The notes under the pieces are model-generated. The model searched no databases and had not been told where the DNA came from. It worked only from the letters and a program-made list of their open reading frames with translations. DNA of 56,119 nt from a virus (lineage: Duplodnaviria; Caudoviricetes), in IMG/VR virus record IMGVR_UViG_3300036820_000642, positions 1-56,119 of that record, one strand, 5' to 3'. Numbering within the stretch: position 1 is the first letter of the stretch; every line of letters starts with the position of its first letter. The translations under genes were made by a program, and so were the position numbers. Below, one piece after another: positions 9,700 through 56,119 of this stretch.

Positions 9700-9902
9700 C
9701 TCCAGAGGAAAAGATCGGCAAGAAGCTCGGCGCATTCATAGCCGAGGCGGGTGTTGGTGCGCTCGGCGCCTGGTGGCTGACGCTCGCTTGGCCTTCCCTG
9801 TTCGACCGTCACCCCGGCTTCTGGATCATGTGGGCTGTCGTCTCGATCGCCGAATGGATTATTGCTGTGTGCATGAAGGGAGAACTGTTGACCAATGGTT
9901 GA
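9696..9902 (+). CDS. Small membrane protein
   Basis: Two hydrophobic helices. Confidence 0.6.
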   Translation: MTPEEKIGKKLGAFIAEAGVGALGAWWLTLAWPSLFDRHPGFWIMWAVVSIAEWIIAVCMKGELLTNG

Positions 9903-10578
9903 GTTTGAACCGATACTCGTTCACCGGTCTTTCGGGAAGATCTCTCGACTGTTCCGGGACGGCGTGTACACGGAGAAGATCGACGGTACGCAACTGGGTG
10001 TCGGTGTGATGCTCGTCAAGGATGGGATGCGCGGGCATCCTGACCTTGACTCGCCTGCTGTGAAGCTCGGGAAATACTCGGATGGCACCGAGTACGCGAT
10101 TTATGCGCAGTCCCGTAACCGGCTGATTTCCCCGTTTGACGACAACTACAGTTCTGCGGCGTGGGTGCATGACAACGCGGAGACGCTAGCGGCCGACCTT
10201 GGTCCCGGCCTCCATTTCGGTGAATGGTGGGGGCATGGTATCCAGAGGAACTACGGGCAGCGGCAGAAATTTTTTTCACTTTTCAACGTCCAAAAGTGGG
10301 AGCCGGTAGCGGAGTCTTTCAAGACTCCGAATCTCCGGACTGTGCCTGTGCTGTCCAGGTTCACGTTCAGCACCGCGGAGGCAAGCCGCGTGCTCACCGA
10401 TCTGGCGATGAATGGTTCCCATGCTGCTCCGGGTTACATGAACCCGGAGGGGATCGTTGTGTTTCATCCGGCGTCACAGTCTCTGTTTAAGGCGACGATT
10501 GACAACGACTCGCGACCTAAGTCGTTGTCGCAGCGGCGTCGCCTGGCTGTGGTGGATGGCGAGGATCTTGCCGCGTGA
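9895..10578 (+). CDS. RNA ligase (Rnl2-like nucleotidyltransferase)
   Basis: Motif I EKIDGT, SRNR, FGEWWG, LFN, EGIVV, FK. Confidence 0.85.
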   Translation: MVEFEPILVHRSFGKISRLFRDGVYTEKIDGTQLGVGVMLVKDGMRGHPDLDSPAVKLGKYSDGTEYAIYAQSRNRLISPFDDNYSSAAWVHDNAETLAADLGPGLHFGEWWGHGIQRNYGQRQKFFSLFNVQKWEPVAESFKTPNLRTVPVLSRFTFSTAEASRVLTDLAMNGSHAAPGYMNPEGIVVFHPASQSLFKATIDNDSRPKSLSQRRRLAVVDGEDLAA

Positions 10579-11837: not shown

Positions 11838-11960
11838 ATGAGTGTGTATCCGTGCTGCCACGGGCAGGACATTTGCCCGCAACACTTGCAGCAGCAGCAG
11901 GAAGATAAGAAGTGGCGTGACAACCAGTTGTCTGGCCGTTTCACGGGGACGAGGCTGTGA
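11838..11960 (+). CDS. Small protein (40 aa; MSVYPCCHGQDICPQH...)
   Basis: Strong SD GGGGAGGGG; GTGA-coupled to phosphoesterase. Confidence 0.5.
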   Translation: MSVYPCCHGQDICPQHLQQQQEDKKWRDNQLSGRFTGTRL

Positions 11961-12766
11961 GTCAGCGGATTGTCGTGGTATCGGATATGCAGATCCCATA
12001 CCACGATGAGAATGCGGTGCTGGGGCTCGTCCGGTTCATTTCTGATTTTCAGCCGGACATGCTCGTCAACGTCGGTGACGATATTGACTCGCCGCAGACC
12101 TCCTATTGGTGTAAGGGGAAGGCTGGCGAGTATCAGGCTACGTTGCAACGCGACATTGACCAGACACGGCATGTGCATGGGTTGTTTCGTGAGGCGCTGG
12201 GCGCGAAACCCTACCATGTGTCGCGGTCGAATCATGGTGACCGGACGGGCCGGTATATCGCCCAGTATGCGCCTGCACTCCAGAAGCTCCGGTGTCTGGA
12301 GTTGCCGCGCCTGCTCGGCTATGACGAGCTGGGTATCCAGTACCACCGTGAGCCGTTCCCGGTGGCTCCCGGCTGGGTGTGCGCTCACGGGGATGAGGGG
12401 ACGCTCTCGCTCATTGCCGGGCGAACCGCTGGGCTCTTGGCTGAGAAGTGGGGCACTAGCGTTGTTTGCGGTCACACACACAGGGCCGGTATCACCAGCC
12501 GTTCATACGGGTACGGCGGGCACGTCAACCGCACAGTGACCGGTATGGAAGTCGGCCACCTCATGTGCATGGGCGAAGCCGGTTACCTGCCTGGCGGTTA
12601 CGGCGACTGGCAAGAAGCCTTCGGCATCCTTTACGTCTCCGGGGAATCAGTGTCACCTGTTCTCGTGCCCGTGCACGAGGGCGGTTATTTCACAGTGGAG
12701 GGGGTGGAATATGGAAGTGTCGCAAGCCGTGATGTTCACGCCTGGGACAATGAGTCGTCTCCATGA
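11957..12766 (+). CDS. Calcineurin-like metallophosphoesterase
   Basis: SDMQIP, GDDID, SNH, HG, GHTH motifs. Confidence 0.9.
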   Translation: MSQRIVVVSDMQIPYHDENAVLGLVRFISDFQPDMLVNVGDDIDSPQTSYWCKGKAGEYQATLQRDIDQTRHVHGLFREALGAKPYHVSRSNHGDRTGRYIAQYAPALQKLRCLELPRLLGYDELGIQYHREPFPVAPGWVCAHGDEGTLSLIAGRTAGLLAEKWGTSVVCGHTHRAGITSRSYGYGGHVNRTVTGMEVGHLMCMGEAGYLPGGYGDWQEAFGILYVSGESVSPVLVPVHEGGYFTVEGVEYGSVASRDVHAWDNESSP

Positions 12767-13388
12767 CCTCATCCCCGAAATCGCATCTAAAAGACGCAGA
12801 TTCTACCGGGGGGTATGTCGTGATGATCTTGAAGCGTCCATGTGGCTCGCAGCCTGCGAACAGGCCGCGAAGGTGGAGGCGCTGTCCGCTGAGGGACCTG
12901 TGGCCGCGCTGGAGGTTCTGCTAACACGCGCCGCTACGGCGGCGCAGGCTGCCGAGGAACGCGAGTACAGGGCACGGAAGGCGCTACGAGCCGGTTACGC
13001 GCCGAGGGATGAACAGTTCTACAGTGTCGGCGCGTTGCGCCGTCTCCTGCCCGCCTACCTCGATGGCGGGGTGTCTGCGGCGCCGCCGCAGGGCAGGGAC
13101 GGCAGCGCGGGCGCCAGGCCCACGGGCGCCGAACAGTACGGTGATTGGCTGTGCACCATGACTGACCTGGATACTGCGCTCAGCGCGGTCTCTGGCTATC
13201 ATCGCGGCATCTTGACGCGTTATTTCGAGTTCCCACAAGGTAAGTCGGGGTGGTCCCATCAGGAGATCTCCAGTGCGCTCGGTATCCCACCGGAGACGCT
13301 GCGGAAACGTGTATACCGGGCGCTGAAAGCGGTACAGAGGGAGCTTGGCGGCGATTCGCCGTATCGGGGAGACCGGCCGGGTTCTTGA
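12711..13388 (+). CDS. Sigma-factor-like DNA-binding protein (region-4 HTH)
   Basis: RDDLEASMWL; C-terminal SHQEISSALGIPPETLRKRVYRALK. Confidence 0.75.
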   Translation: MEVSQAVMFTPGTMSRLHDLIPEIASKRRRFYRGVCRDDLEASMWLAACEQAAKVEALSAEGPVAALEVLLTRAATAAQAAEEREYRARKALRAGYAPRDEQFYSVGALRRLLPAYLDGGVSAAPPQGRDGSAGARPTGAEQYGDWLCTMTDLDTALSAVSGYHRGILTRYFEFPQGKSGWSHQEISSALGIPPETLRKRVYRALKAVQRELGGDSPYRGDRPGS

Positions 13389-24584: not shown

Positions 24585-25150
24585 GGGGCCTTGCAGCTAT
24601 TGCCCTTTACCTGTCTCCACTATGCCTGACCAGCGCAAACGTAATCGTTATAAAATAGTTATCAGATTGTGTGTCCCGCTGAGGCGGTCCCGAGAGGGTG
24701 TTAATAGTAGAGGGAGAAAACGGGCCTCCCCCTCCCCTCACACTCCCCTCCCTCTCCTCCCTCTCCTACTGGCCCGCTGTAGCGGGCCATTGCAGTAACA
24801 GTAGTAGTAACTGTTCGTAAGAACAGCTCCGCTGTTCTTACTCACGCAGTACAGGGTTTCTTGAACCCCACTCTTTCGCCGCTGGCTAGAGACATCAAAG
24901 ATGTCCGGTTATTTCACGACAGCGCTGACGGCCTAAAGGCCGAGGTGCAGTTCATCGGAGCCGGACTCCATCGCGTACCGCGTGTGATTGATAATCATCG
25001 CTCTCGCGGCGCCCTCGGGCACAGGCTTGCCGGCCTGACGGTAATAGGAATCGATCCATTCCAGGTAGGCCCCCTCATCCTCTAGGGCGTACCTTGCCGC
25101 GTTCACCAATGAGGCAAGCAACTCCGGGTTTCTGCACATGCAGTAATCAT

Positions 25151-25223
25151 AGCGGGGTGTTAGCAGTGGTAGCTTGCCGGACTCATAATCCGGAGGTCGC
25201 GGGTTCGATCCCCGCCCCCGCCA
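25151..25223 (+). tRNA. tRNA-CAT, initiator (fMet)-like
   Basis: Cloverleaf: AGCGGGG/CCCCGCC (1:72 mismatch), CCGGA-CTCATAA-TCCGG, GCGGG-TTCGATC-CCCGC; no encoded CCA. Confidence 0.85.
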
Positions 25224-25235
25224 CTTGTCAATGTG

Positions 25236-25327
25236 GCCGCCTGGTCGATCCCAGGCGGCAAGATCCAAGCTGCTGTGATCCCTGCCAATGGCAATGGATC
25301 ACAACCAGTCACACCGCAAGGTGTGAC
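25236..25327 (+). ncRNA. Unknown structured RNA (three hairpins, one with GCAA tetraloop)
   Basis: gccgcctgg/ccaggcggc; tgtgatcc/ggatcaca; gtcacacc-GCAA-ggtgtgac. Confidence 0.5.
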
Positions 25328-25329
25328 AA

Positions 25330-25413
25330 GGGCGTGCCAGGCATCGTGGCACGGGCAGACCCTCAAAATCTGCACCGACCTAGACACGGGTTCAACTCCC
25401 GTCACGTCCACCA
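25330..25413 (+). ncRNA. Mini-tmRNA: tRNA-like domain only (no pseudoknots or tag ORF)
   Basis: Acceptor GGGCGTG/CACGTCC with G3-U70, A73, encoded CCA; stemless D-loop CCAGGCATCG; 3-nt GAC linker; T-arm ACGGG-TTCAACT-CCCGT. Confidence 0.75.
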
Positions 25414-25528
25414 AAGGGTATGCGGAAATTGGCGGCTGGCCTCGGCTGGCGTGGGTTTCGGCACCCTCCATACCCTTCTAAGTTCGGCTCCGGGCTGGGA
25501 AACCATCCGCGCAAGTACCCCCGGAGCC
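25414..25528 (+). ncRNA. Unknown structured RNA(s): two branched stem domains
   Basis: aagggtatg/cataccctt closing stem; ggctccggg/cccggagcc enclosing GAAA and GCAA tetraloop hairpins. Confidence 0.5.
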
Positions 25529-25537
25529 ACACCCCAT

Positions 25538-25611
25538 GGGGGCCGTAGCTCAGCAAATAGAGCGCACGGCAAAGGCCGTGAGATCACAGGTGTAAATCCT
25601 GTCGGCCCCCA
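25538..25611 (+). ncRNA. tRNA-like RNA lacking a functional anticodon loop
   Basis: GGGGGCCG/CGGCCCCC, GCTC/GAGC D-stem, CACGGC-AAAG-GCCGTG, ACAGG-TGTAAAT-CCTGT. Confidence 0.75.
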
Positions 25612-25634
25612 CAATAATCACCACTAGGGATCAA

Positions 25635-26264
25635 TTGCCAGAAGTAGACCTAGACCCCGATCTAGTCATGCCTAAAAGGCAGTGCCGCTCCAAATCGCGG
25701 CAGACAGGCAAGCAGTGCAAACGGTATTGCTCTACCGGCCATATTGTCTGCTGGTGGCATGGGGCCGGCACACCGAATGTGCAGCGTGCCGCGGTGCGCC
25801 GGGCTAACAACTGGTACGCGAAGAAAATGGCGCTCAGGATGCTCGAAACAGCCGGTTACGAACGAATAGACGATCCGGTTGAGGCGCTAGCCCACCTGGC
25901 TGGCGAAGTCTGGGCAGCCAAAGAGTTTTTCCGCTCCAAAATCGATGAACTGCGGTACCAGTCCGCGACTGGTGAACAGCTCCGCTCCGAGGTCGCGCTC
26001 TATGAGCGGGCCTTGGATCGCTGCATGAAAGTCCTCGACGTGATGGCCCGCCTCAACATCAGCGACCGCCGCACGGAGATCGCCGAACAGCAGGCCGTCA
26101 TGATCGCCTCCGCTGTACAGCGCATGTTTGACCGCCTCGGCCTGACCTACCGGCAACAGCAGCTCGCCATGACGATCGTCCCCGAAGAACTGCGCGCCAT
26201 CACTGCCGCTCCGGCTCACGAGCCGTGGCAAGACCACAATGTTGGCCTCGATCCCGAGGACTGA
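25635..26264 (+). CDS. Putative terminase small subunit (N-terminal CCCH Zn motif)
   Basis: C...RQTGKQCKR...VCWWHGAGTP; directly upstream of TerL. Confidence 0.6.
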   Translation: MPEVDLDPDLVMPKRQCRSKSRQTGKQCKRYCSTGHIVCWWHGAGTPNVQRAAVRRANNWYAKKMALRMLETAGYERIDDPVEALAHLAGEVWAAKEFFRSKIDELRYQSATGEQLRSEVALYERALDRCMKVLDVMARLNISDRRTEIAEQQAVMIASAVQRMFDRLGLTYRQQQLAMTIVPEELRAITAAPAHEPWQDHNVGLDPED

Positions 26265-27711
26265 CCCCTCCCCGTGGGATGCCGCCGCCGCGATCTTCGA
26301 GCGGCGGTCCATGGAGAACGACCCGGTGAAATGGGCCAAGGACAGGGCCAAAGTTCACCTCTGGTCGTTGCAGCAGAAGATAGCGCGTTCTGTCGCCGTC
26401 AATAAGCGTACTGCTGTCCAGTCCTCCCACGGTGTCGGCAAGAGTTTCCTAGCCGCCACCCTGGCGGCCTGGTGGGTAGACACCCACCCCCCGGATCAGA
26501 CCATGGTCGTCACCACAGCGCCGAGCCTTGACCAGGTGCACGCGATTCTGTGGGAAGAGATCCGCGGTCTCCACGACAGAGCCCACCTGCCTGGCGTTGT
26601 CCAGCGCACCGACCGTTGGCTAGTCGGTGACCGCCTTGTAGGAATGGGGCGTAAACCCCCGGACTATTCAGAGTCAGCGTTCCAGGGAATTCACAGGAAA
26701 TATGTCTTGGTCATTCTCGATGAGGCATGCGGGATCGATCAATGGTTGTGGACTGCGGTCGAAACAATCACGACCGCAGACACATGCCGGATTCTGGCAA
26801 TCGGTAACCCCGACGATCCCAACTCGCATTTCAGGGATCTGTGTTCCGGTGTTCCTGGCTGGAAATCCTTCAAGATCAGCGCGTTCGACTCACCGAACTT
26901 CACAGGCGAACGTATCCCCCAGGAGCTACAGCAGCTTCTTACGTCTAAACAGTGGGTTGCCGACCGCGAAGCGGAATGGGGTATCGACAATCCCCTGTAC
27001 GTGGCCAAGGTGCTCGGGGAATTCCCGACAGACCATCCTTGGTCCGTCATCAGGATGACAGACATTTACGCGTGCAGCATCCCAGGCACGCCAAGGTCAA
27101 AGAAAGAGCTGCTACCCGTGCAGCTCGGGGTGGATGTCGGCGGCGGCGGTGACGAGACAGTCATTCGTGAGCGCCGCGGCCTGGTCGCAGGCCGCGAATG
27201 GCGGGAACGTTCTGACAAGCCGGAGAACATCGCACGGCTGGTAGTCCATGCGATAAAGGCCACCGGTGCCGATTCGGTAAAGGTGGACAGCATCGGCATA
27301 GGTCACGGCCTGGTCGGAGAGCTGCGGAACCTACGGGAACTGGGCGCGCATAGCGCGCATGTCCATGGAGTGAATGTCAGTGAGCGAGCCAGAGACCCCG
27401 AGAAGTACTACAACCTCCGCAGCCAATTGTGGTGGGAATGCGGGCGGATCGCCGCCGAGCAACGGTTGTTCGACTTGTCCGGTATGGAAAATGCTGACCG
27501 GACTGTTGCGCAGATGCTGGAGCCGCATTACACGTTTGACCTCAAAGGCAGAATCAAGATAGAGGCGAAGGACGAAATTATCAAGCGGATGGGGCGAAGC
27601 CCCGACAACGCTGACGCTCTCTTGCTCGCTTTCTATGAGCCGGAACGGCGTAACGGCTCTGAATGGTTCGATGCGATTCTAAGCGGTCAATGGGTCGGCC
27701 AAGACTTCTAG
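26239..27711 (+). CDS. terL: Terminase large subunit
   Basis: SHGVGKS Walker A, ILDEA Walker B, IGNP, GVDVG, SPDNADA. Confidence 0.93.
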   Translation: MLASIPRTDPSPWDAAAAIFERRSMENDPVKWAKDRAKVHLWSLQQKIARSVAVNKRTAVQSSHGVGKSFLAATLAAWWVDTHPPDQTMVVTTAPSLDQVHAILWEEIRGLHDRAHLPGVVQRTDRWLVGDRLVGMGRKPPDYSESAFQGIHRKYVLVILDEACGIDQWLWTAVETITTADTCRILAIGNPDDPNSHFRDLCSGVPGWKSFKISAFDSPNFTGERIPQELQQLLTSKQWVADREAEWGIDNPLYVAKVLGEFPTDHPWSVIRMTDIYACSIPGTPRSKKELLPVQLGVDVGGGGDETVIRERRGLVAGREWRERSDKPENIARLVVHAIKATGADSVKVDSIGIGHGLVGELRNLRELGAHSAHVHGVNVSERARDPEKYYNLRSQLWWECGRIAAEQRLFDLSGMENADRTVAQMLEPHYTFDLKGRIKIEAKDEIIKRMGRSPDNADALLLAFYEPERRNGSEWFDAILSGQWVGQDF

Positions 27712-28352: not shown

Positions 28353-30351
28353 CCGCGCCGAGAAAGCCAGCGGCAGCACTGCGCTAGCCACTCGTTCCGG
28401 CCCCCAGCAGTTCCCGCCTGGCGCGAAGACAAGCGACGTTTCAGACCTCGCAAGAGCTCTCACGCAGTACATGGGCCATTACGATATGGATGGCCAGGGC
28501 AAGATTCTCCCTCGCCCGGACGAGTGGCTTTCCGCGCAGTTCGGCCCGCAATGGCCGCTGCCGATCGAACCGCTTGATGCGCCTCGCCCCGACACGGGGA
28601 TGCCGGAGCCACGGCAATGGCAATACCCGTTCAGTTGGAACCTCCAGCTATTCGACCAGAAATCTGTTAGCTGGGACACGCTCAAAGAGGCGTCGGAGAC
28701 ACCACTATTCCGGGCTTGCATTGAAGTCAGGAAAACTGAGCTGGCGTCCCTTGACTGGGGTATCCGTGTCTCATCGCGGGCAGCGGAAGCGATTGCCCGC
28801 AAATCCCGGCGCAGCAAAGAAGATGTTCAGAACGAGCTACGCCAGAAGTATGAGAAGCAGATCGAGAAGGCTTCTGACTTCTGGGAAGTCCCGGATCGGA
28901 AAAACGGTCTCGAATTCAGCGACTGGATTAGCGCCGCTCTTGAGGAACAGCTCACCTGGGATGCGATCGCCGTCTATCCTCGCCGCACCTACGGCGGGGA
29001 TCTGCACGACCTGATGATTGTGGACGCCTCCACGATTAAACCGCTGCTGGACGAGCAGGGCGGCAGGCCGCTGCCGCCATACCCTGCTTTCCAGCAGATT
29101 CTCTACGGGTTTCCCCGCGGGGAATTCGTCGCTGACACCGTGGATATTGACGGTGAAACAGTCGTCCCCGGCGGCATGTCCGCCAGCCAGTTGATTTACA
29201 AACGCCGTGTCGTCCGCACACGGACCCCCTACGGGTTCTCCGCGACAGAACAAGCATTGCTCGACGGCCTTTTGTACAATCAGCGTTTCGGGTGGATGCT
29301 CGCCGAATACACCGAAGGCACGCAGCCCGCCCAGTTTTTCCGTAACACCGGCGATGTCGATTGGTCTGCCAGGCAACTACTGCAATATGAGAAGGCTTTT
29401 AATGATCGTTACGCTGGCCGCACTGCTGAACGTTACCGTTTTCCTATTCTCCCACCTGGCATTGAGCCTGTAACACCCCAGCAAATCCAGGAGCGATACA
29501 AGGCAGATTATGATCTGCATCTTATCGCCAGAGTCGGGATGCATTACGGGGTAATGCTCCCCGAGCTTGGTTTCACTGAGCGCGGCGGACTCGGCTCTGC
29601 TGGGTATCACGAAGGTCAGGAAGCAGTCGGCTACCGGCGTTTCCGGCTCCCGGACATCCGTTGGTTCGCCCGTTTCCTGACCGCAATCAGCCGCGCACAA
29701 CTCGACTTTCCCCCCGAGCTGGAATTCGCGTTCCTCGGGCTCGAAGAGGAAGACGAGGCCGCAGTTGACGAAGTTGTGCAGAACAAAACGCAGTCCGCGC
29801 GGATGACGTTGAATGAGGCACGTGCGCGCGATGGCCTGCCGCCTTTTGACTTTCCAGAGGCGGATATGCCGATGGTGCAGACAGCCCGCGGTGTCGTGTT
29901 CATTCAGGGTGCATCTGAGAGTGCGCCACCAGGCGTGCTGATTGAACCAGTGTCGGAGAACCCGACGATTCCGGCTGGTCCTGGCGCGTCGGGTGCTCCC
30001 GGCCAGTCGGCACAGCCGCAGCAGGGGCAAGCGCAGTCCCCGACGCAGCGCCGGCCGATCGGTCCGGCCGGTAGAGGCAAGACCGCCGCCGCTGCGGCGA
30101 AAGAGCTGGACACCTTCAAGGCATGGGTGCTGAAGCACCCAGACCCATCAAGGCCTTTCGAGTTCGAGTCAGCCGCCGAAGAGCTGTTTGAGCTGGATAC
30201 GAACCTACTCGGGGAGCACTGGGGCAAGTACGTGTTCAAGGCGGGTGGTGCTGCCCCAAAAGCCAGCAGCCACCCCCACAGCAGTGGCCAGCCTGGGAAC
30301 AAGACCTCGCCCTGGTCGCCGTATACGCCGGAGCACTGGCTAGCGCCCTAA
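28333..30351 (+). CDS. Portal protein
   Basis: Position after TerL; DASTIKPL, YGFS, TLNEARARDGLPP. Confidence 0.88.
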   Translation: MAFWQRNRAEKASGSTALATRSGPQQFPPGAKTSDVSDLARALTQYMGHYDMDGQGKILPRPDEWLSAQFGPQWPLPIEPLDAPRPDTGMPEPRQWQYPFSWNLQLFDQKSVSWDTLKEASETPLFRACIEVRKTELASLDWGIRVSSRAAEAIARKSRRSKEDVQNELRQKYEKQIEKASDFWEVPDRKNGLEFSDWISAALEEQLTWDAIAVYPRRTYGGDLHDLMIVDASTIKPLLDEQGGRPLPPYPAFQQILYGFPRGEFVADTVDIDGETVVPGGMSASQLIYKRRVVRTRTPYGFSATEQALLDGLLYNQRFGWMLAEYTEGTQPAQFFRNTGDVDWSARQLLQYEKAFNDRYAGRTAERYRFPILPPGIEPVTPQQIQERYKADYDLHLIARVGMHYGVMLPELGFTERGGLGSAGYHEGQEAVGYRRFRLPDIRWFARFLTAISRAQLDFPPELEFAFLGLEEEDEAAVDEVVQNKTQSARMTLNEARARDGLPPFDFPEADMPMVQTARGVVFIQGASESAPPGVLIEPVSENPTIPAGPGASGAPGQSAQPQQGQAQSPTQRRPIGPAGRGKTAAAAAKELDTFKAWVLKHPDPSRPFEFESAAEELFELDTNLLGEHWGKYVFKAGGAAPKASSHPHSSGQPGNKTSPWSPYTPEHWLAP

Positions 30352-54985: not shown

Positions 54986-56119
54986 TCAGCCTACCGCAGA
55001 CAAGACATGCTTGCCATTCGACCGTGATCCGAATGGCAGCACTTGCGCGCCGGAAGGCGGCGCAGCATCCGGCACCGCGAAACCATACATGGTTTCCTCC
55101 ACCAGATACTCATTCAGGAAGTCCCGTTCCTCATCCACCCCGATATACGTGAGTGTCTGCCGGATATCCTTGTGGTTCAGTTTCGCCTTCACCATCATCA
55201 GGGCCTGGTCGTTGCCCTTGGTCCCGGCGAGGTGCTTGAGCATCGCCCTCGCCCCGGAACGGCGCAGCATATGCATGCCCTCACGCATGTGCGTGACACT
55301 GTCCCCGTTGCCGCCAGGGGTTTCTATGCCCATCTCGTCAAGGACGTACTTAACCACATACTCCATGCGCTTATACGGCATGTCGGGGTGGATTTTCTTG
55401 TATGCGTTAGGGCTGGTACCGCCGTGGGCGGTAAGCCGCGGAATGAGGTACCACTCCGGGTGAGCTTTGATCATTTCTTCCGGTGTCGCGAAACCCTGAT
55501 CAGTCGCATACCAGGACAGCCAGTCCATCAATTCCGTGAACCAGTACGGATCGAAACGGTCTAGTGTCCACCGCCGCGTTTTCACCCGGTACAGGAGTAC
55601 CGTGCGCGCCTCAAGGTCCAGTTTCTCTAGCCGGATGAACGAGACCTCGGATTCACGGGCCAGCGTTGATAGCGTCATGGCGACGACTGCGCGGCGCTGC
55701 TGATGACTCTTCCCCGCGACCTCAAGCGCCTCCGGAATGCGATCCTCGGGCATCCGGTACCTGGGGGCGGGCTCGTATTTGACGCGCTTACGGCCGGCTA
55801 GGGCATCGTCTGCGTCGTCGCGGTCAACGAAGCGGCGGCGCACACACCATTTCAACCAGGCCCGGACGGCGACAAGGAGCTGATTGCGGGATGCGTGCTG
55901 ATCAGTGCCGTACGAGTTGAACACGTCGGCTATGTGCCCGGTGTGGATGTCGCACACCATCAGGCCCTTACGGGAGACGCTGCACACCCTGTCCAGGCGG
56001 CGGATGTACCCGATGTAGGCACGGACTGTGCTCGCGGACCCTAGCTCCGATTCGAGCTGGGCTTCCCACTCGGGGATGCTGTCAGCTACGCTGATTTTCG
56101 TTATTGTTCGGGAGGACAT
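54986..56119 (-). CDS. int: Tyrosine recombinase / integrase
   Basis: Catalytic R (LARESE), K (RVKT), H-x-x-R (HMLRR), H (LNH), Y (TLTYI). Confidence 0.88.
   Translation of the reverse strand: MSSRTITKISVADSIPEWEAQLESELGSASTVRAYIGYIRRLDRVCSVSRKGLMVCDIHTGHIADVFNSYGTDQHASRNQLLVAVRAWLKWCVRRRFVDRDDADDALAGRKRVKYEPAPRYRMPEDRIPEALEVAGKSHQQRRAVVAMTLSTLARESEVSFIRLEKLDLEARTVLLYRVKTRRWTLDRFDPYWFTELMDWLSWYATDQGFATPEEMIKAHPEWYLIPRLTAHGGTSPNAYKKIHPDMPYKRMEYVVKYVLDEMGIETPGGNGDSVTHMREGMHMLRRSGARAMLKHLAGTKGNDQALMMVKAKLNHKDIRQTLTYIGVDEERDFLNEYLVEETMYGFAVPDAAPPSGAQVLPFGSRSNGKHVLSAVG
56088..56119. repeat. Terminal direct repeat / circular assembly overlap (copy 2)
   Basis: Identical to 1-32. Confidence 0.95.

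What the first reader, a model, noticed from the sequence alone, without database searches (positions are those of the whole stretch)
25151..25611. Compact array of tRNA mimics and unknown structured RNAs upstream of the terminase
Seen: 460 bp with no credible ORF, packed as tRNA-CAT, three-hairpin RNA, mini-tmRNA, two branched GNRA-capped domains, anticodon-less tRNA. Known: tRNA-shaped units are cut out by RNase P and 3' nucleases, and many host defences and toxins cleave tRNA. Inference: a polycistronic translation-decoy cassette in which tRNA shapes also punctuate release of the intervening RNAs, possibly working with the phage RNA ligase and phosphoesterase. This is my best candidate for an undescribed system.
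Basis: partly seen in the sequence, partly recalled or inferred. Interest (0 to 1): 0.85.

Follow-up and report, generated by a model that had tools for sequence, protein, structure and literature searches.

The report
Phage tRNA islet with non-decoding mimics
Just ahead of its DNA-packaging genes this soil prophage carries one real methionine tRNA gene and two tRNA-shaped RNA genes that cannot read codons, one of them like the tag-less "mini-tmRNA" already known from a mycobacteriophage, so it is an unusual example of a known kind and not a new system.

Summary
The stretch 25151-25612 (+) is non-coding and rich in RNA structure.

Confirmed:
- A tRNA-Met(CAT) with an unpaired 1:72 position, as in initiator tRNAs.
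- Three stable hairpins.
- An 84-nt RNA with alanine-type ends (G3:U70, A73, encoded CCA) and no anticodon arm.
- A complete 75-nt cloverleaf whose anticodon loop is closed to 4-6 nt, with a histidine-like G-1:C73 end.

Only partly confirmed: of the "two branched GNRA domains", one is an unbranched hairpin, and both are weakly supported.

The 84-nt RNA resembles the TLD-only tmRNA of mycobacteriophage DS6A, which papers report to inhibit tmRNA in E. coli. The window's copy shares only the ends of that family. My controls show that real tRNA-Ala genes score almost as well, so descent from tmRNA or from tRNA-Ala is open.

The array is not conserved as a unit. Relatives share only the tRNA-Met slot upstream of the terS-position gene, and the sealed tRNA and the spacers have no homologues in what I searched. 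No RNA data were available.

This scan's earlier notes report mini-tmRNAs and sealed-anticodon mimics on many other genomes.

Verdict: a new variant of a known kind, of moderate interest.

The parts
25151..25224 (+). tRNA-Met (anticodon CAT), initiator-like. A1 and C72 are unpaired, 2 of the 3 G:C pairs at the base of the anticodon stem are kept, and the D-arm is irregular.
   Evidence: ARAGORN. RF00005 42.1 bits. 74-79% identical to the tRNA-Met upstream of the terminase genes in L024, L010 and L002. The initiator features I read from the ARAGORN drawing.
25236..25259 (.). Hairpin 1: 9 perfect pairs and a UCGAUC loop. It resembles a tRNA T-arm.
   Evidence: Fold z -3.4, 1 of 200 shuffles as stable, and equal energy on both strands. 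78% identical over 18 nt to the T-arm of the tRNA-Met (repeat D5).
25274..25303 (.). Hairpin 2: 8 pairs enclosing a 4-pair stub.
   Evidence: z -4.6, 0 of 200 shuffles as stable; the minus strand folds better (-21.0 against -16.5).
25308..25327 (.). Hairpin 3: 8 perfect pairs capped by GCAA.
   Evidence: z -5.2, 0 of 200 shuffles as stable.
25330..25413 (+). 84-nt alanine-type tRNA mimic (tag-less mini-tmRNA-like). It has a 7-pair acceptor stem with G3:U70, a T-arm with loop UUCAACU, A73 and an encoded CCA. One long irregular hairpin with a 9-nt loop stands in place of the D and anticodon arms. There is no tag reading frame.
   Evidence: RF00023 40.6 bits (gathering score 47) against RF00005 19.8 bits. 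My model R1 of phage mini-tmRNAs gives 34.2 bits, E 8e-6, as the top hit in the whole window, but only the ends align. ARAGORN does not call it. Fold z -2.3.
25414..25477 (+). Domain A: a 64-nt imperfect hairpin rich in G-U pairs.
   Evidence: + strand -30.0 against - strand -20.9 kcal/mol; z -2.2, 3 of 200 shuffles as stable. No homologue was found.
25486..25528 (+). Domain B: a 9-pair stem closing a small three-way junction with GAAA- and GCAA-capped stubs.
   Evidence: z -2.6, 1 of 200 shuffles as stable. No homologue was found.
25538..25612 (+). tRNA-shaped RNA without a decoding loop. All four stems are perfect. The anticodon arm is 6 pairs with a 4-nt loop (or 5 pairs with 6 nt). The acceptor has 8 pairs including G-1:C73. 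The D-loop lacks GG, the T-loop is UGUAAAU, and no CCA is encoded.
   Evidence: ARAGORN tRNA-??? and its drawing. RF00005 48.3 bits. z -6.8 and -6.1. It is the only sealed-loop hit among 41 strict cloverleaf hits in 2.2 Mb of session loci plus the window.
25635..26264 (+). Context: the gene in the small-terminase position. It starts 22 nt after the last tRNA-like unit.
   Evidence: phrog_3678, function unknown. Conserved directly upstream of TerL in relatives. No Pfam family.
26239..27711 (+). Context: large terminase subunit.
   Evidence: phrog_2, E 4e-36.
24933..25139 (-). Context: a probable small divergent gene whose start codon lies 12 nt from the tRNA-Met.
   Evidence: Gene-like GC by codon position, 0.59/0.43/0.75. 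No family and no relatives.
9895..10578 (+). Context only: RNA ligase. No link to the array is shown.
   Evidence: PF09414, E 2.9e-11; phrog_548, E 3e-22.
11957..12766 (+). Context only: metallophosphoesterase. No link to the array is shown.
   Evidence: phrog_221, E 2e-76.

Best explanation
This is a variable tRNA-gene islet at the head of the packaging and late gene block of a temperate phage, probably of an actinomycete. It holds one decoding tRNA, an initiator-like tRNA-Met, and two tRNA-shaped RNAs that cannot decode.

The 84-nt unit keeps exactly the parts that AlaRS, RNase P, the CCA enzyme and EF-Tu read: a 7-pair acceptor stem with G3:U70, A73, CCA and the T-arm. It has lost the anticodon arm. 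In design it is therefore a tag-less mini-tmRNA.

Inferred mechanism: the array is transcribed rightwards with or just ahead of the late genes. RNase P and 3' trimming cut each tRNA-shaped unit out. The Ala-type RNA is charged and competes with host tmRNA for SmpB, AlaRS and EF-Tu. That would damp the tagging of phage proteins, or rescue stalled ribosomes without adding a tag, while late proteins are made.

The sealed cloverleaf, with its His-like G-1:C73 end, is a second shape-only mimic. Alanine and histidine identities are the two that, by textbook knowledge, need no anticodon for charging. The hairpins between the units are processing or stability elements, or relics of earlier tRNA genes.

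Shown: the sequences, the folds, the family resemblance, the position and the lack of conservation. Inferred: transcription, processing, charging, SmpB binding and any benefit to the phage.
For: Units and folds.

Alanine-type ends and the tmRNA model outscoring the tRNA model (40.6 against 19.8 bits).

Same size and same match mode as the DS6A TLD-only tmRNA (83 nt, 43.2 bits).

Published statements that the DS6A-like form inhibits tmRNA: PMC4131195 and PMC11915505, passages read.

The family is real and phage-borne:
- 120 of the 132 hits are not called by ARAGORN, they comprise 95 unique sequences, and 97 of the 120 are 81-83 nt.
- 95.8% of cells are paired, against 40.6-49.2% with slid partners; the covariation score is 0.63 against 0.06-0.09 (the alignment was fitted to the model).
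- 23 of the 120 lie within 300 nt of a tRNA gene.
- A canonical copy sits unannotated inside the tRNA array of Streptomyces phage pSt2308 (87.4 bits).
- Ten family members share the window's exact acceptor stem, and six of them (L089, L090, L092, L093, L097, L098) score 51-60 bits and L091 scores 64 bits with R1.

The slot upstream of the terS-position gene holds tRNA genes in four distinct relatives: L002, L004, L010 and L237.

Stems against loops in the sealed tRNA: 23 of 23 pairs are intact while the conserved D- and T-loop positions are changed (read by eye).

No phage SmpB was found, so a host partner would be needed.
Against: - There is no evidence of transcription or processing.
- The window's 84-nt unit shares only the acceptor, part of the D-loop and the T-arm with the family. 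The family's P2 helix, A-rich loop and small conserved hairpin are absent.
- Its scores are near the level of ordinary tRNA-Ala genes. It scores 34 bits with R1, where ~76-nt bacterial hits score 31-38. It scores 40.6 bits with RF00023, where tRNA-Ala genes score 31-38. Its 3' half is 88-93% identical over about 30 nt to actinobacterial tRNA-Ala genes. It may therefore be a remodelled tRNA-Ala, and SmpB binding is not implied.
- G3:U70 in the family survey was fixed by my search patterns, so it is not independent evidence.
- The array, the sealed tRNA and the spacers have no homologue in anything I searched, so selection on them cannot be tested.
- The tRNA-Met scores lower (42 bits) than its relatives (60-62 bits), which hints at some decay in this islet.
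Confidence: 0.45

Rival explanations
1. Processing punctuation. The tRNA-shaped units and hairpins are cis signals, like the t-elements of plant mitochondria. RNase P, RNase Z or RNase III would cut there to set the 5' end and the stability of the late mRNA. The excised RNAs would have no job of their own. This does not exclude the best explanation.
For: The last unit ends 22 nt before the start of the terS-position gene, on the same strand. Mini-tmRNAs in other viral contigs nearly always lie on the strand of their neighbours and close to them, for example 119 nt upstream of an HK97-type capsid gene in 13 loci, or abutting an exonuclease gene in 20 loci. t-elements are proposed as RNase P/Z signals at mRNA ends (PMC1920247, abstract read). 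A sealed anticodon and altered D- and T-loops do no harm to a unit that serves only as a processing signal.
Against: A processing signal has no evident need for G3:U70, A73 and an encoded CCA. Relatives express the same late genes with only a tRNA-Met, or with nothing, in this slot. No end-mapping data exist.
Confidence: 0.25
2. A decaying tRNA islet. The two odd units and the T-arm-like hairpin 1 are remnants of tRNA genes (Ala and others) that lost their anticodon arms. They would be neutral leftovers.
For: The array is unique among the relatives sampled. The tRNA-Met itself has a weakened D-arm and scores 42.1 bits, against 59.7-61.7 for the relatives. Hairpin 1 resembles a T-arm. The ends of the 84-nt unit are close to those of bacterial tRNA-Ala.
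Against: All 23 stem pairs of the sealed cloverleaf are intact while the loop positions changed. The 84-nt unit keeps 7 of 7 acceptor pairs and 5 of 5 T-stem pairs, and its replacement arm is itself a long helix. Both fold far better than shuffles (z -6.8 and -2.3). Random decay should break stems.
Confidence: 0.15
3. The palindromes in spacer 1 (and possibly others) act in DNA, as binding sites for the terminase or a regulator, or as part of a cos or pac region that often lies just upstream of terS. On this reading they are not structured RNAs.
For: Hairpins 1-3 are near-perfect palindromes with equal or better energy on the minus strand. The region lies directly upstream of the terS-position and TerL genes.
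Against: No repeated binding motif was found. tRNA genes flank the palindromes on both sides. Domain A is strand-asymmetric in favour of a + strand RNA. Nothing marks genome ends here.
Confidence: 0.1
4. A two-piece (circularly permuted) tmRNA. The T-arm and 3' acceptor strand at 25383-25413 would pair with a second 5' acceptor-like strand near 25447, followed by a short tag frame.
For: Rfam tmRNA_permuted RF04321 matches 25383-25461 at 21.8 bits, E 0.034.
Against: The score is far below the gathering score of 47. The same model gives a comparable chance-level hit (17.3 bits, E 0.19) downstream of the canonical one-piece mini-tmRNA in L124, so the T-arm and acceptor alone drive the score. Position 1:72 would be a U-C mismatch. 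Only about 90 nt are left for a coding piece.
Confidence: 0.02

Closest known systems
TLD-only (CDS-less) tmRNA of Mycobacterium phage DS6A (record JN698994, 28478-28560)
   Same: Phage-borne and 83 nt against 84 nt. It has a 7-pair acceptor stem with G3:U70, a T-arm, discriminator A and no tag frame. It is matched by RF00023 only through its two ends (43.2 against 40.6 bits). The host is an actinomycete.
   Different: DS6A has the family's P2 helix, A-rich loop and small CCGCACGCGG hairpin and scores 63 bits with R1, against 34 for the window. It stands alone between gp33 and a DNA polymerase III gene, not in a tRNA array. It encodes no CCA. Its inhibition of tmRNA is known to me only second-hand.
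The wider family of phage tag-less mini-tmRNAs seen here in IMG/VR (L089-L218) and in Streptomyces phage pSt2308
   Same: An alanine-type acceptor and T-arm module of about 82 nt. Members sometimes sit inside tRNA gene clusters (23 of 120). Ten members share the window's exact acceptor stem.
   Different: The window's copy lacks the conserved inner architecture. It has only part of the D-loop motif (6 of 11 positions by the R1 alignment) and AGAC where the family has GGAC before the T-stem.
Bacterial tRNA-Ala
   Same: Acceptor and T-arm nearly identical in sequence to some actinobacterial tRNA-Ala genes (88-93% over about 30 nt), with G3:U70, A73 and CCA.
   Different: No D-stem in the standard register, no 7-nt anticodon loop and no alanine anticodon. 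RF00005 gives 19.8 bits, below its gathering score of 29, and ARAGORN makes no call.
t-elements of plant mitochondria (PMC1920247, abstract read) and the tRNA-punctuation idea
   Same: tRNA-like folds without a decoding function that lie next to mRNA ends and are proposed to be cut by RNase P or RNase Z.
   Different: A different domain of life. Those are defined by mapped transcript ends; here no ends are mapped.
Phage tRNA gene clusters that also hold small stable RNAs of unknown role (T4 species 1 and 2 RNAs; T5 stable RNAs). This comparison is recalled and comes from no call.
   Same: Co-located and presumably co-processed tRNAs plus non-tRNA small RNAs.
   Different: No sequence relation was tested.

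Membership tests
tRNA (Rfam RF00005): unit 25151-25224 | Cloverleaf scoring above the gathering score, with a 7-nt anticodon loop | tested here: met
   42.1 bits against 29. ARAGORN calls tRNA-Met with anticodon CAT.
Bacterial initiator tRNA: unit 25151-25224 | No Watson-Crick pair at 1:72, and three G:C pairs at 29-31:39-41 (features recalled from textbook knowledge) | tested here: inconclusive
   A1 and C72 are drawn unpaired by ARAGORN. Only 2 of the 3 G:C pairs are present (31:39 is A-U). The D-arm is irregular. All of this I read by eye.
tRNA (Rfam RF00005): unit 25538-25612 | 7-nt anticodon loop carrying an anticodon | tested here: not met
   The body scores 48.3 bits, but the loop is 6 nt, or 4 nt if the C-G pair closes. 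ARAGORN gives tRNA-???.
tRNA-His-type acceptor: unit 25538-25612 | An extra G-1 paired with C73 (feature recalled) | tested here: met
   ARAGORN draws 8 acceptor pairs, the outermost being G-C. The chance of this is roughly 1 in 16. No GUG anticodon is present. The best global matches among the 153 session tRNAs are tRNA-His, but they are weak (score 15).
tmRNA (Rfam RF00023): unit 25330-25413 | Score at or above the gathering score of 47 | tested here: not met
   40.6 bits. Control: tRNA-Ala genes score 31-38 bits in three bacterial genomes. Canonical phage mini-tmRNAs score 52.5-55.8 bits.
tmRNA (Rfam RF00023): unit 25330-25413 | An mRNA-like domain with a tag reading frame and pseudoknots | tested here: not met
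   37 nt stand where the model has 326. ARAGORN finds no tmRNA.
tmRNA tRNA-like domain / alanine identity: unit 25330-25413 | G3:U70, discriminator A73, 3' CCA, and a T-arm with a 7-nt loop abutting the acceptor stem | tested here: met
   Read from the sequence and from the alignments to RF00023 and R1. Charging by AlaRS was not tested.
Phage tag-less mini-tmRNA family (my model R1) | An 8-pair P2 helix enclosing an A-rich loop and a small conserved hairpin, the D-loop motif GGUUUCGAC, and GGAC before the T-stem | tested here: not met
   R1 aligns only the ends and skips 35 nt in the middle. The unit scores 34.2 bits, against 46-98 for the 82-nt members and 31-38 for ~76-nt hits in bacterial genomes, which I take to be tRNA-Ala.
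Two-piece (permuted) tmRNA (Rfam RF04321) | Score at or above the gathering score of 47, with a coding piece that carries a tag | tested here: not met
   21.8 bits, E 0.034. A comparable chance-level hit occurs next to L124's one-piece mini-tmRNA.
SmpB-binding RNA | Binding of SmpB at the elbow and D-loop side of the tRNA-like domain | not testable with these tools
   No assay was possible. The phage encodes no SmpB (0 matches to PF01668).

The most novel reading that the evidence does not exclude
The array is a purpose-built cassette of chargeable but non-decoding tRNA mimics. One carries alanine identity (G3:U70) and one carries histidine identity (G-1:C73). These are the two identities that need no anticodon for charging. 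They are made together with an initiator tRNA at the onset of late expression. As aminoacylated decoys they would soak up host factors that act on the acceptor end, such as SmpB and trans-translation, toxins that modify or cleave the acceptor or CCA end, or aaRS and EF-Tu pools. The intervening hairpins would be released as further small RNAs.
Probability: 0.12. Interest if true: 0.8.

Novelty: new variant of a known kind. Interest (0 to 1): 0.45.

Why it matters
Tag-less mini-tmRNAs are a plausible way for phages to interfere with, or replace, the host's main ribosome-rescue and protein-tagging system. In the papers I could read they are known from a single phage, DS6A. They appear to be common in viral contigs, and the standard tool (ARAGORN) misses them.

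This window adds a divergent alanine-type copy. It sits beside a second shape-only tRNA mimic with a histidine-like end and beside an initiator-like tRNA. If these RNAs are made and charged, the locus would be a compact test bed for what non-decoding tRNA mimics do during infection.

If they are not made, the locus shows how phage tRNA islets decay. It also warns that ends-only matches to the tmRNA model near 40 bits cannot be told from tRNA-Ala.

Tried and rejected
Searches for homologues of the array:
- blastn against 50,697 phage records found only tRNA-Met and generic T-arm/acceptor matches.
- megablast of 12 kb around the array found nothing.
- The terS-position protein found no relatives in IMG/VR by peptide patterns.
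- A pattern for the sealed tRNA gave 0 hits in IMG/VR.
- blastn of the array against the terminase relatives' loci found only the tRNA-Met.
- A DNA search of 401 genomes of one phylum gave a match in 49 of 401. All matches I inspected were ordinary tRNA genes (Ile, Arg, Pro, Ala; 8 loci). The tally of 49 includes 8 genomes flagged unpublished (G052, G243, G022, G178, G086, G340, G124, G092). I used no sequence from them; the tRNA-Ala comparison rests on G244, G137 and G106.

Readings rejected:
- Permuted tmRNA: rejected.
- Remnant of an attachment site: rejected. The integrase is at 54986-56119 on the minus strand, at the other end of the record, and the unit has both halves of a tRNA-like fold.
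- Protein-coding (the 177-aa ORF): rejected.
- Intrinsic terminators: the hairpins have no U tails (read by eye), and the consensus scan lists none for them on the + strand.
- An inverted repeat between hairpin 2 (25289-25300) and the start region of the terS-position gene (25629-25640; 11 of 12 complementary): by my own rough estimate about 1.5 such pairs are expected by chance in this stretch, so I dropped it.

Expression: the look-up of sequencing runs listed no RNA holder.

Sealed-anticodon tRNAs elsewhere: 0 of 153 ARAGORN tRNAs in 2.19 Mb of session loci have a shortened loop. A strict cloverleaf scan gave 41 hits, and only the window's is sealed. That scan did not include a shuffled control.

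Neighbourhood of mini-tmRNAs in 121 loci: the contexts are mixed, with exonuclease, head protease, capsid and portal genes, and no single partner.

Papers:
- Mao et al. 2009 is not held; I know it only through PMC4131195 and PMC11915505.
- I found no paper describing a large phage family of tag-less tmRNAs or sealed-anticodon tRNA mimics in searches. That is a limited set of word searches.
- Supplementary tables of PMC11915505 and PMC9004378, which I could not open, may list more phage forms.

Tools not used: the search for homologous proteins, structure prediction and complex prediction.
Full report
**What is there**

The window is a 56,119-bp record that IMG/VR classes as a provirus, with G+C near 0.59. 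A tyrosine integrase lies at 54986-56119 on the minus strand, next to an HTH-DUF5753 regulator of actinomycete type. The structural genes run rightwards from about 25.6 kb: a gene in the small-terminase position (25635-26264, phrog_3678), TerL (26239-27711), a DNA methyltransferase and the portal.

The finding covers the 484 nt between a probable small minus-strand gene (24933-25139; GC by codon position 0.59/0.43/0.75) and the terS-position gene. A 177-aa ORF spans the stretch. It has flat codon-position GC (0.61/0.61/0.57), a junk-like translation and no tblastn relative in the loci I held.

**The units**

- tRNA-Met. ARAGORN finds tRNA-Met(CAT) at 25151-25224 and an undetermined tRNA at 25538-25612. 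Rfam scores them 42.1 and 48.3 bits as tRNA. The tRNA-Met has A1 and C72 unpaired and two of the three G:C pairs typical of initiators (read by eye). Its D-arm is irregular, and it scores lower than its counterparts in relatives, which reach 59.7-61.7 bits.
- Sealed tRNA, 25538-25612. It has four perfect stems, an 8-pair acceptor stem with a G-1:C73 pair, and a 6-pair anticodon stem closed by 4 nt (or 5 pairs and 6 nt). Its D-loop lacks GG and its T-loop is UGUAAAU. It folds far better than shuffles: z -6.8 and -6.1, with 0 of 200 shuffles as stable.
- Three hairpins, 25225-25329. They are highly stable (z about -5) but are symmetric palindromes that fold as well on the other strand. Hairpin 1 is 78% identical over 18 nt to the T-arm of the tRNA-Met.
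These are one unbranched hairpin rich in G-U pairs (25414-25477; -30.0 on the + strand against -20.9 on the minus strand) and one small three-way junction (25486-25528). Each is only modestly better than shuffles (z -2.2 and -2.6). Together they are not better (z about -1).

**The 84-nt unit**

The unit at 25330-25413 has a 7-pair acceptor stem whose third pair is G-U, a 5-pair T-stem with loop UUCAACU directly abutting it, discriminator A and an encoded CCA. Between the two lies a 12-nt D-loop-like stretch and one long irregular helix with a 9-nt loop.

Rfam's tmRNA model matches it end to end at 40.6 bits, below its gathering score of 47, with the whole mRNA-like part deleted. The tRNA model gives only 19.8 bits, and ARAGORN calls nothing there.

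The same search on mycobacteriophage DS6A finds an 83-nt element at 28478-28560 in the same mode, at 43.2 bits. That element is unannotated in the record. It is the 'TLD only' tmRNA described by Hudson, Lau and Williams. They write that a similar molecule strongly inhibits tmRNA, perhaps by titrating SmpB (PMC4131195, passages read). The 2025 tmRNA database paper again names DS6A as the phage form without a tag frame and says it was shown to inhibit endogenous tmRNA in E. coli (PMC11915505, passages read). The primary paper, Mao et al. 2009, is not held.

**How common the kind is**

- A pattern fixing the window's acceptor stem and a generic T-loop found 10 IMG/VR loci.
- Of the 132 hits in these 130 loci, 120 are not overlapped by any ARAGORN call. 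They comprise 95 unique sequences. 97 of the 120 are 81-83 nt, 23 of the 120 lie within 300 nt of a tRNA gene, and 18 of the 120 encode CCA.
- The family is stereotyped: acceptor stem, a GGUUUCGAC-type D-loop, an 8-pair helix enclosing an A-rich loop and a small hairpin (often CCGCAYGCGG), GGAC, T-arm, acceptor stem.
- RNAalifold finds compensatory changes in 13 of 18 predicted pairs.
- On a model-fitted alignment of 69 distinct sequences, 95.8% of cells pair, against 40.6-49.2% when partners are slid. The covariation score is 0.63 against 0.06-0.09.
- The G-U at position 3:70 was fixed by my patterns, so it is not evidence.
- A canonical copy lies unannotated inside the tRNA array of Streptomyces phage pSt2308 (87.4 bits).
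- Another lies in the same contig as L002, the window's closest terminase relative. It sits about 2.4 kb from that contig's stretch homologous to window 11969-13226, which includes the metallophosphoesterase gene, and not next to the terminase.
- Earlier notes of this scan report the same family on many other genomes. I treat those notes as leads only. My survey was made independently, before I read them.

**Is the window's unit a member?**

Only in part. My model R1, built from 20 canonical sequences without the window, ranks the unit first in the whole window at 34.2 bits, E 8e-6; the next hit scores 15.4. But R1 aligns only the acceptor stem, 6 of 11 D-loop positions and the T-arm, and it skips the middle.

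Two controls weaken the case further:
- R1 gives 31-38 bits to ~76-nt hits in bacterial genomes.
- RF00023 gives 31-38 bits to the same kind of hits. Three of these places are shared between the two calls.

I take these hits to be tRNA-Ala genes, because the window unit's 3' half matches annotatable tRNA-Ala genes at 88-93% over about 30 nt.

So the unit is safely an alanine-identity tRNA mimic without an anticodon arm, which is functionally what a tRNA-like domain of tmRNA is. Whether it descends from tmRNA or from a tRNA-Ala is open. Whether it still binds SmpB is also open.

In favour of the tmRNA side: seven of the ten IMG/VR elements with exactly the window's acceptor stem score 51-64 bits with R1 (L089, L090, L091, L092, L093, L097, L098), and two of them (L092, L098) show a tmRNA-like D-loop by eye.

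**Is the array a unit?**

I found no evidence for that. Terminase relatives came from three sources:
- 69 IMG/VR loci, nine of them at 71-78% identity.
- 13 genome loci at 39-44%, mostly prophages of actinomycetes.
- 80 metagenome loci.

ARAGORN finds a tRNA-Met just upstream of the terS-position gene in L002, L004, L010 and L237. It is followed there by other cargo: an odd tRNA with an 8-nt loop plus tRNA-Asn in L002, and tRNA-Gln in L237. L024 has a tRNA-Met about 2.4 kb upstream of TerL. L219, L220 and L231 appear to be the same contigs as L002, L004 and L010.

R1 finds no mini-tmRNA in the 93 loci searched. Its one hit at E up to 0.1 is L024's tRNA-Met. blastn finds nothing beyond the tRNA-Met. 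The sealed tRNA, the spacers and the inner hairpin of the 84-nt unit have no homologue anywhere I looked.

The slot is therefore a variable tRNA islet, and this phage's filling of it is unique in the sample. It follows that selection on the orphan parts cannot be tested by comparison.

**Mechanism**

The best-supported reading is that the units are expressed and processed like phage tRNAs. The alanine-type mimic would then act on the trans-translation system, either by competing with tmRNA for SmpB, AlaRS and EF-Tu or by rescuing ribosomes without a tag. This rests on the DS6A precedent.

The phage has no SmpB of its own. The position at the head of the late genes fits a need during bulk synthesis of structural proteins. 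In other contigs, mini-tmRNAs often sit in head-gene modules or after an exonuclease gene, on the same strand as their neighbours.

The sealed cloverleaf keeps its stems perfectly while its conserved loop positions have changed. That pattern speaks for selection on shape. Its G-1:C73 end suggests histidine identity. By textbook knowledge, AlaRS and HisRS are the synthetases that charge acceptor minihelices without an anticodon, so both mimics could be charged yet never decode. This is inference.

An equally simple and compatible reading is that the tRNA shapes are processing signals for the late mRNA (compare t-elements; PMC1920247, abstract read).

Decay of an old tRNA islet, and DNA-level roles for the palindromes, remain possible. 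The permuted-tmRNA reading, the attachment-site reading and the protein-coding reading are rejected, as set out under Tried and rejected.

The RNA ligase and the metallophosphoesterase exist, but nothing links them to the array.

**Verdict**

The interpretation as an undescribed system is not. The central element belongs to, or imitates, a kind already described in phage DS6A, and that kind is common in viral contigs. The array is a one-off combination without comparative or expression support.

It is a new variant of a known kind and of moderate interest. The most useful follow-ups are end mapping, charging assays and SmpB binding.

Noticed in passing
L099-L218 and L089-L098 (IMG/VR loci); L299:1475-1555 (Streptomyces phage pSt2308); L085:1501-1583 (DS6A): Tag-less mini-tmRNAs of 81-83 nt form a large, stereotyped and strongly covarying family in viral contigs. 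ARAGORN calls none of 120 as such, canonical copies pass Rfam's tmRNA threshold, and the copy in a cultured Streptomyces phage is unannotated.
   Followed up: partly
L138:12637-13899, L168:5798-7645, L166:4872-6071, L182:3382-4347, L158:6140-7606: Mini-tmRNAs in viral contigs have recurrent same-strand neighbours: an exonuclease gene ending at the RNA's first base (20 loci, 11 RNA lineages), an XkdF-like protease fusion upstream (15 loci, 7 lineages), capsid genes downstream (13 loci in 3 lineages and 10 loci in 6 lineages) and a portal gene upstream (11 loci, 5 lineages). No single partner stands out.
   Followed up: partly
L124:4907-4988 (same contig as L002): The window's closest terminase relative carries a canonical mini-tmRNA (RF00023 55.8 bits) in a different genome region, about 2.4 kb from that contig's stretch homologous to window 11969-13226, which includes the metallophosphoesterase gene.
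   Followed up: partly
L002:3090-3166 (= L219:2590-2666): A tRNA-like gene with an 8-nt anticodon loop (ARAGORN 'tttg', RF00005 38.9 bits) lies between tRNA-Met and tRNA-Asn, in the slot that matches the window's array.
   Followed up: no
G003, G004 and G001 (handles): A method warning. Ordinary ~76-nt tRNA-Ala-like genes score 31-38 bits against Rfam tmRNA RF00023 through its two ends alone, so sub-threshold 'mini-tmRNA' hits near 40 bits need other evidence.
   Followed up: yes
window 24817-24841: A perfect 11-pair palindrome with a 3-nt loop lies between the upstream + strand genes and the small minus-strand ORF. It may be a two-way terminator.
   Followed up: no
window 25140-25151 (minus strand): TATGAT lies 6 nt upstream of the ATG of the minus-strand ORF 24933-25139, with no Shine-Dalgarno sequence. 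This may be a promoter for a leaderless mRNA, abutting the first base of the tRNA-Met. I read this by eye.
   Followed up: no
window 12711-13388: A phage protein with sigma-70 region 4 (PF08281, E 1e-6). It might direct late promoters, which would explain why no sigma-70-type promoter is seen ahead of the array.
   Followed up: no
L299:1863-2037 (pSt2308 record): Two adjacent 85-86-nt features annotated 'tRNA-OTHER' lie in the same tRNA array as that phage's mini-tmRNA.
   Followed up: no
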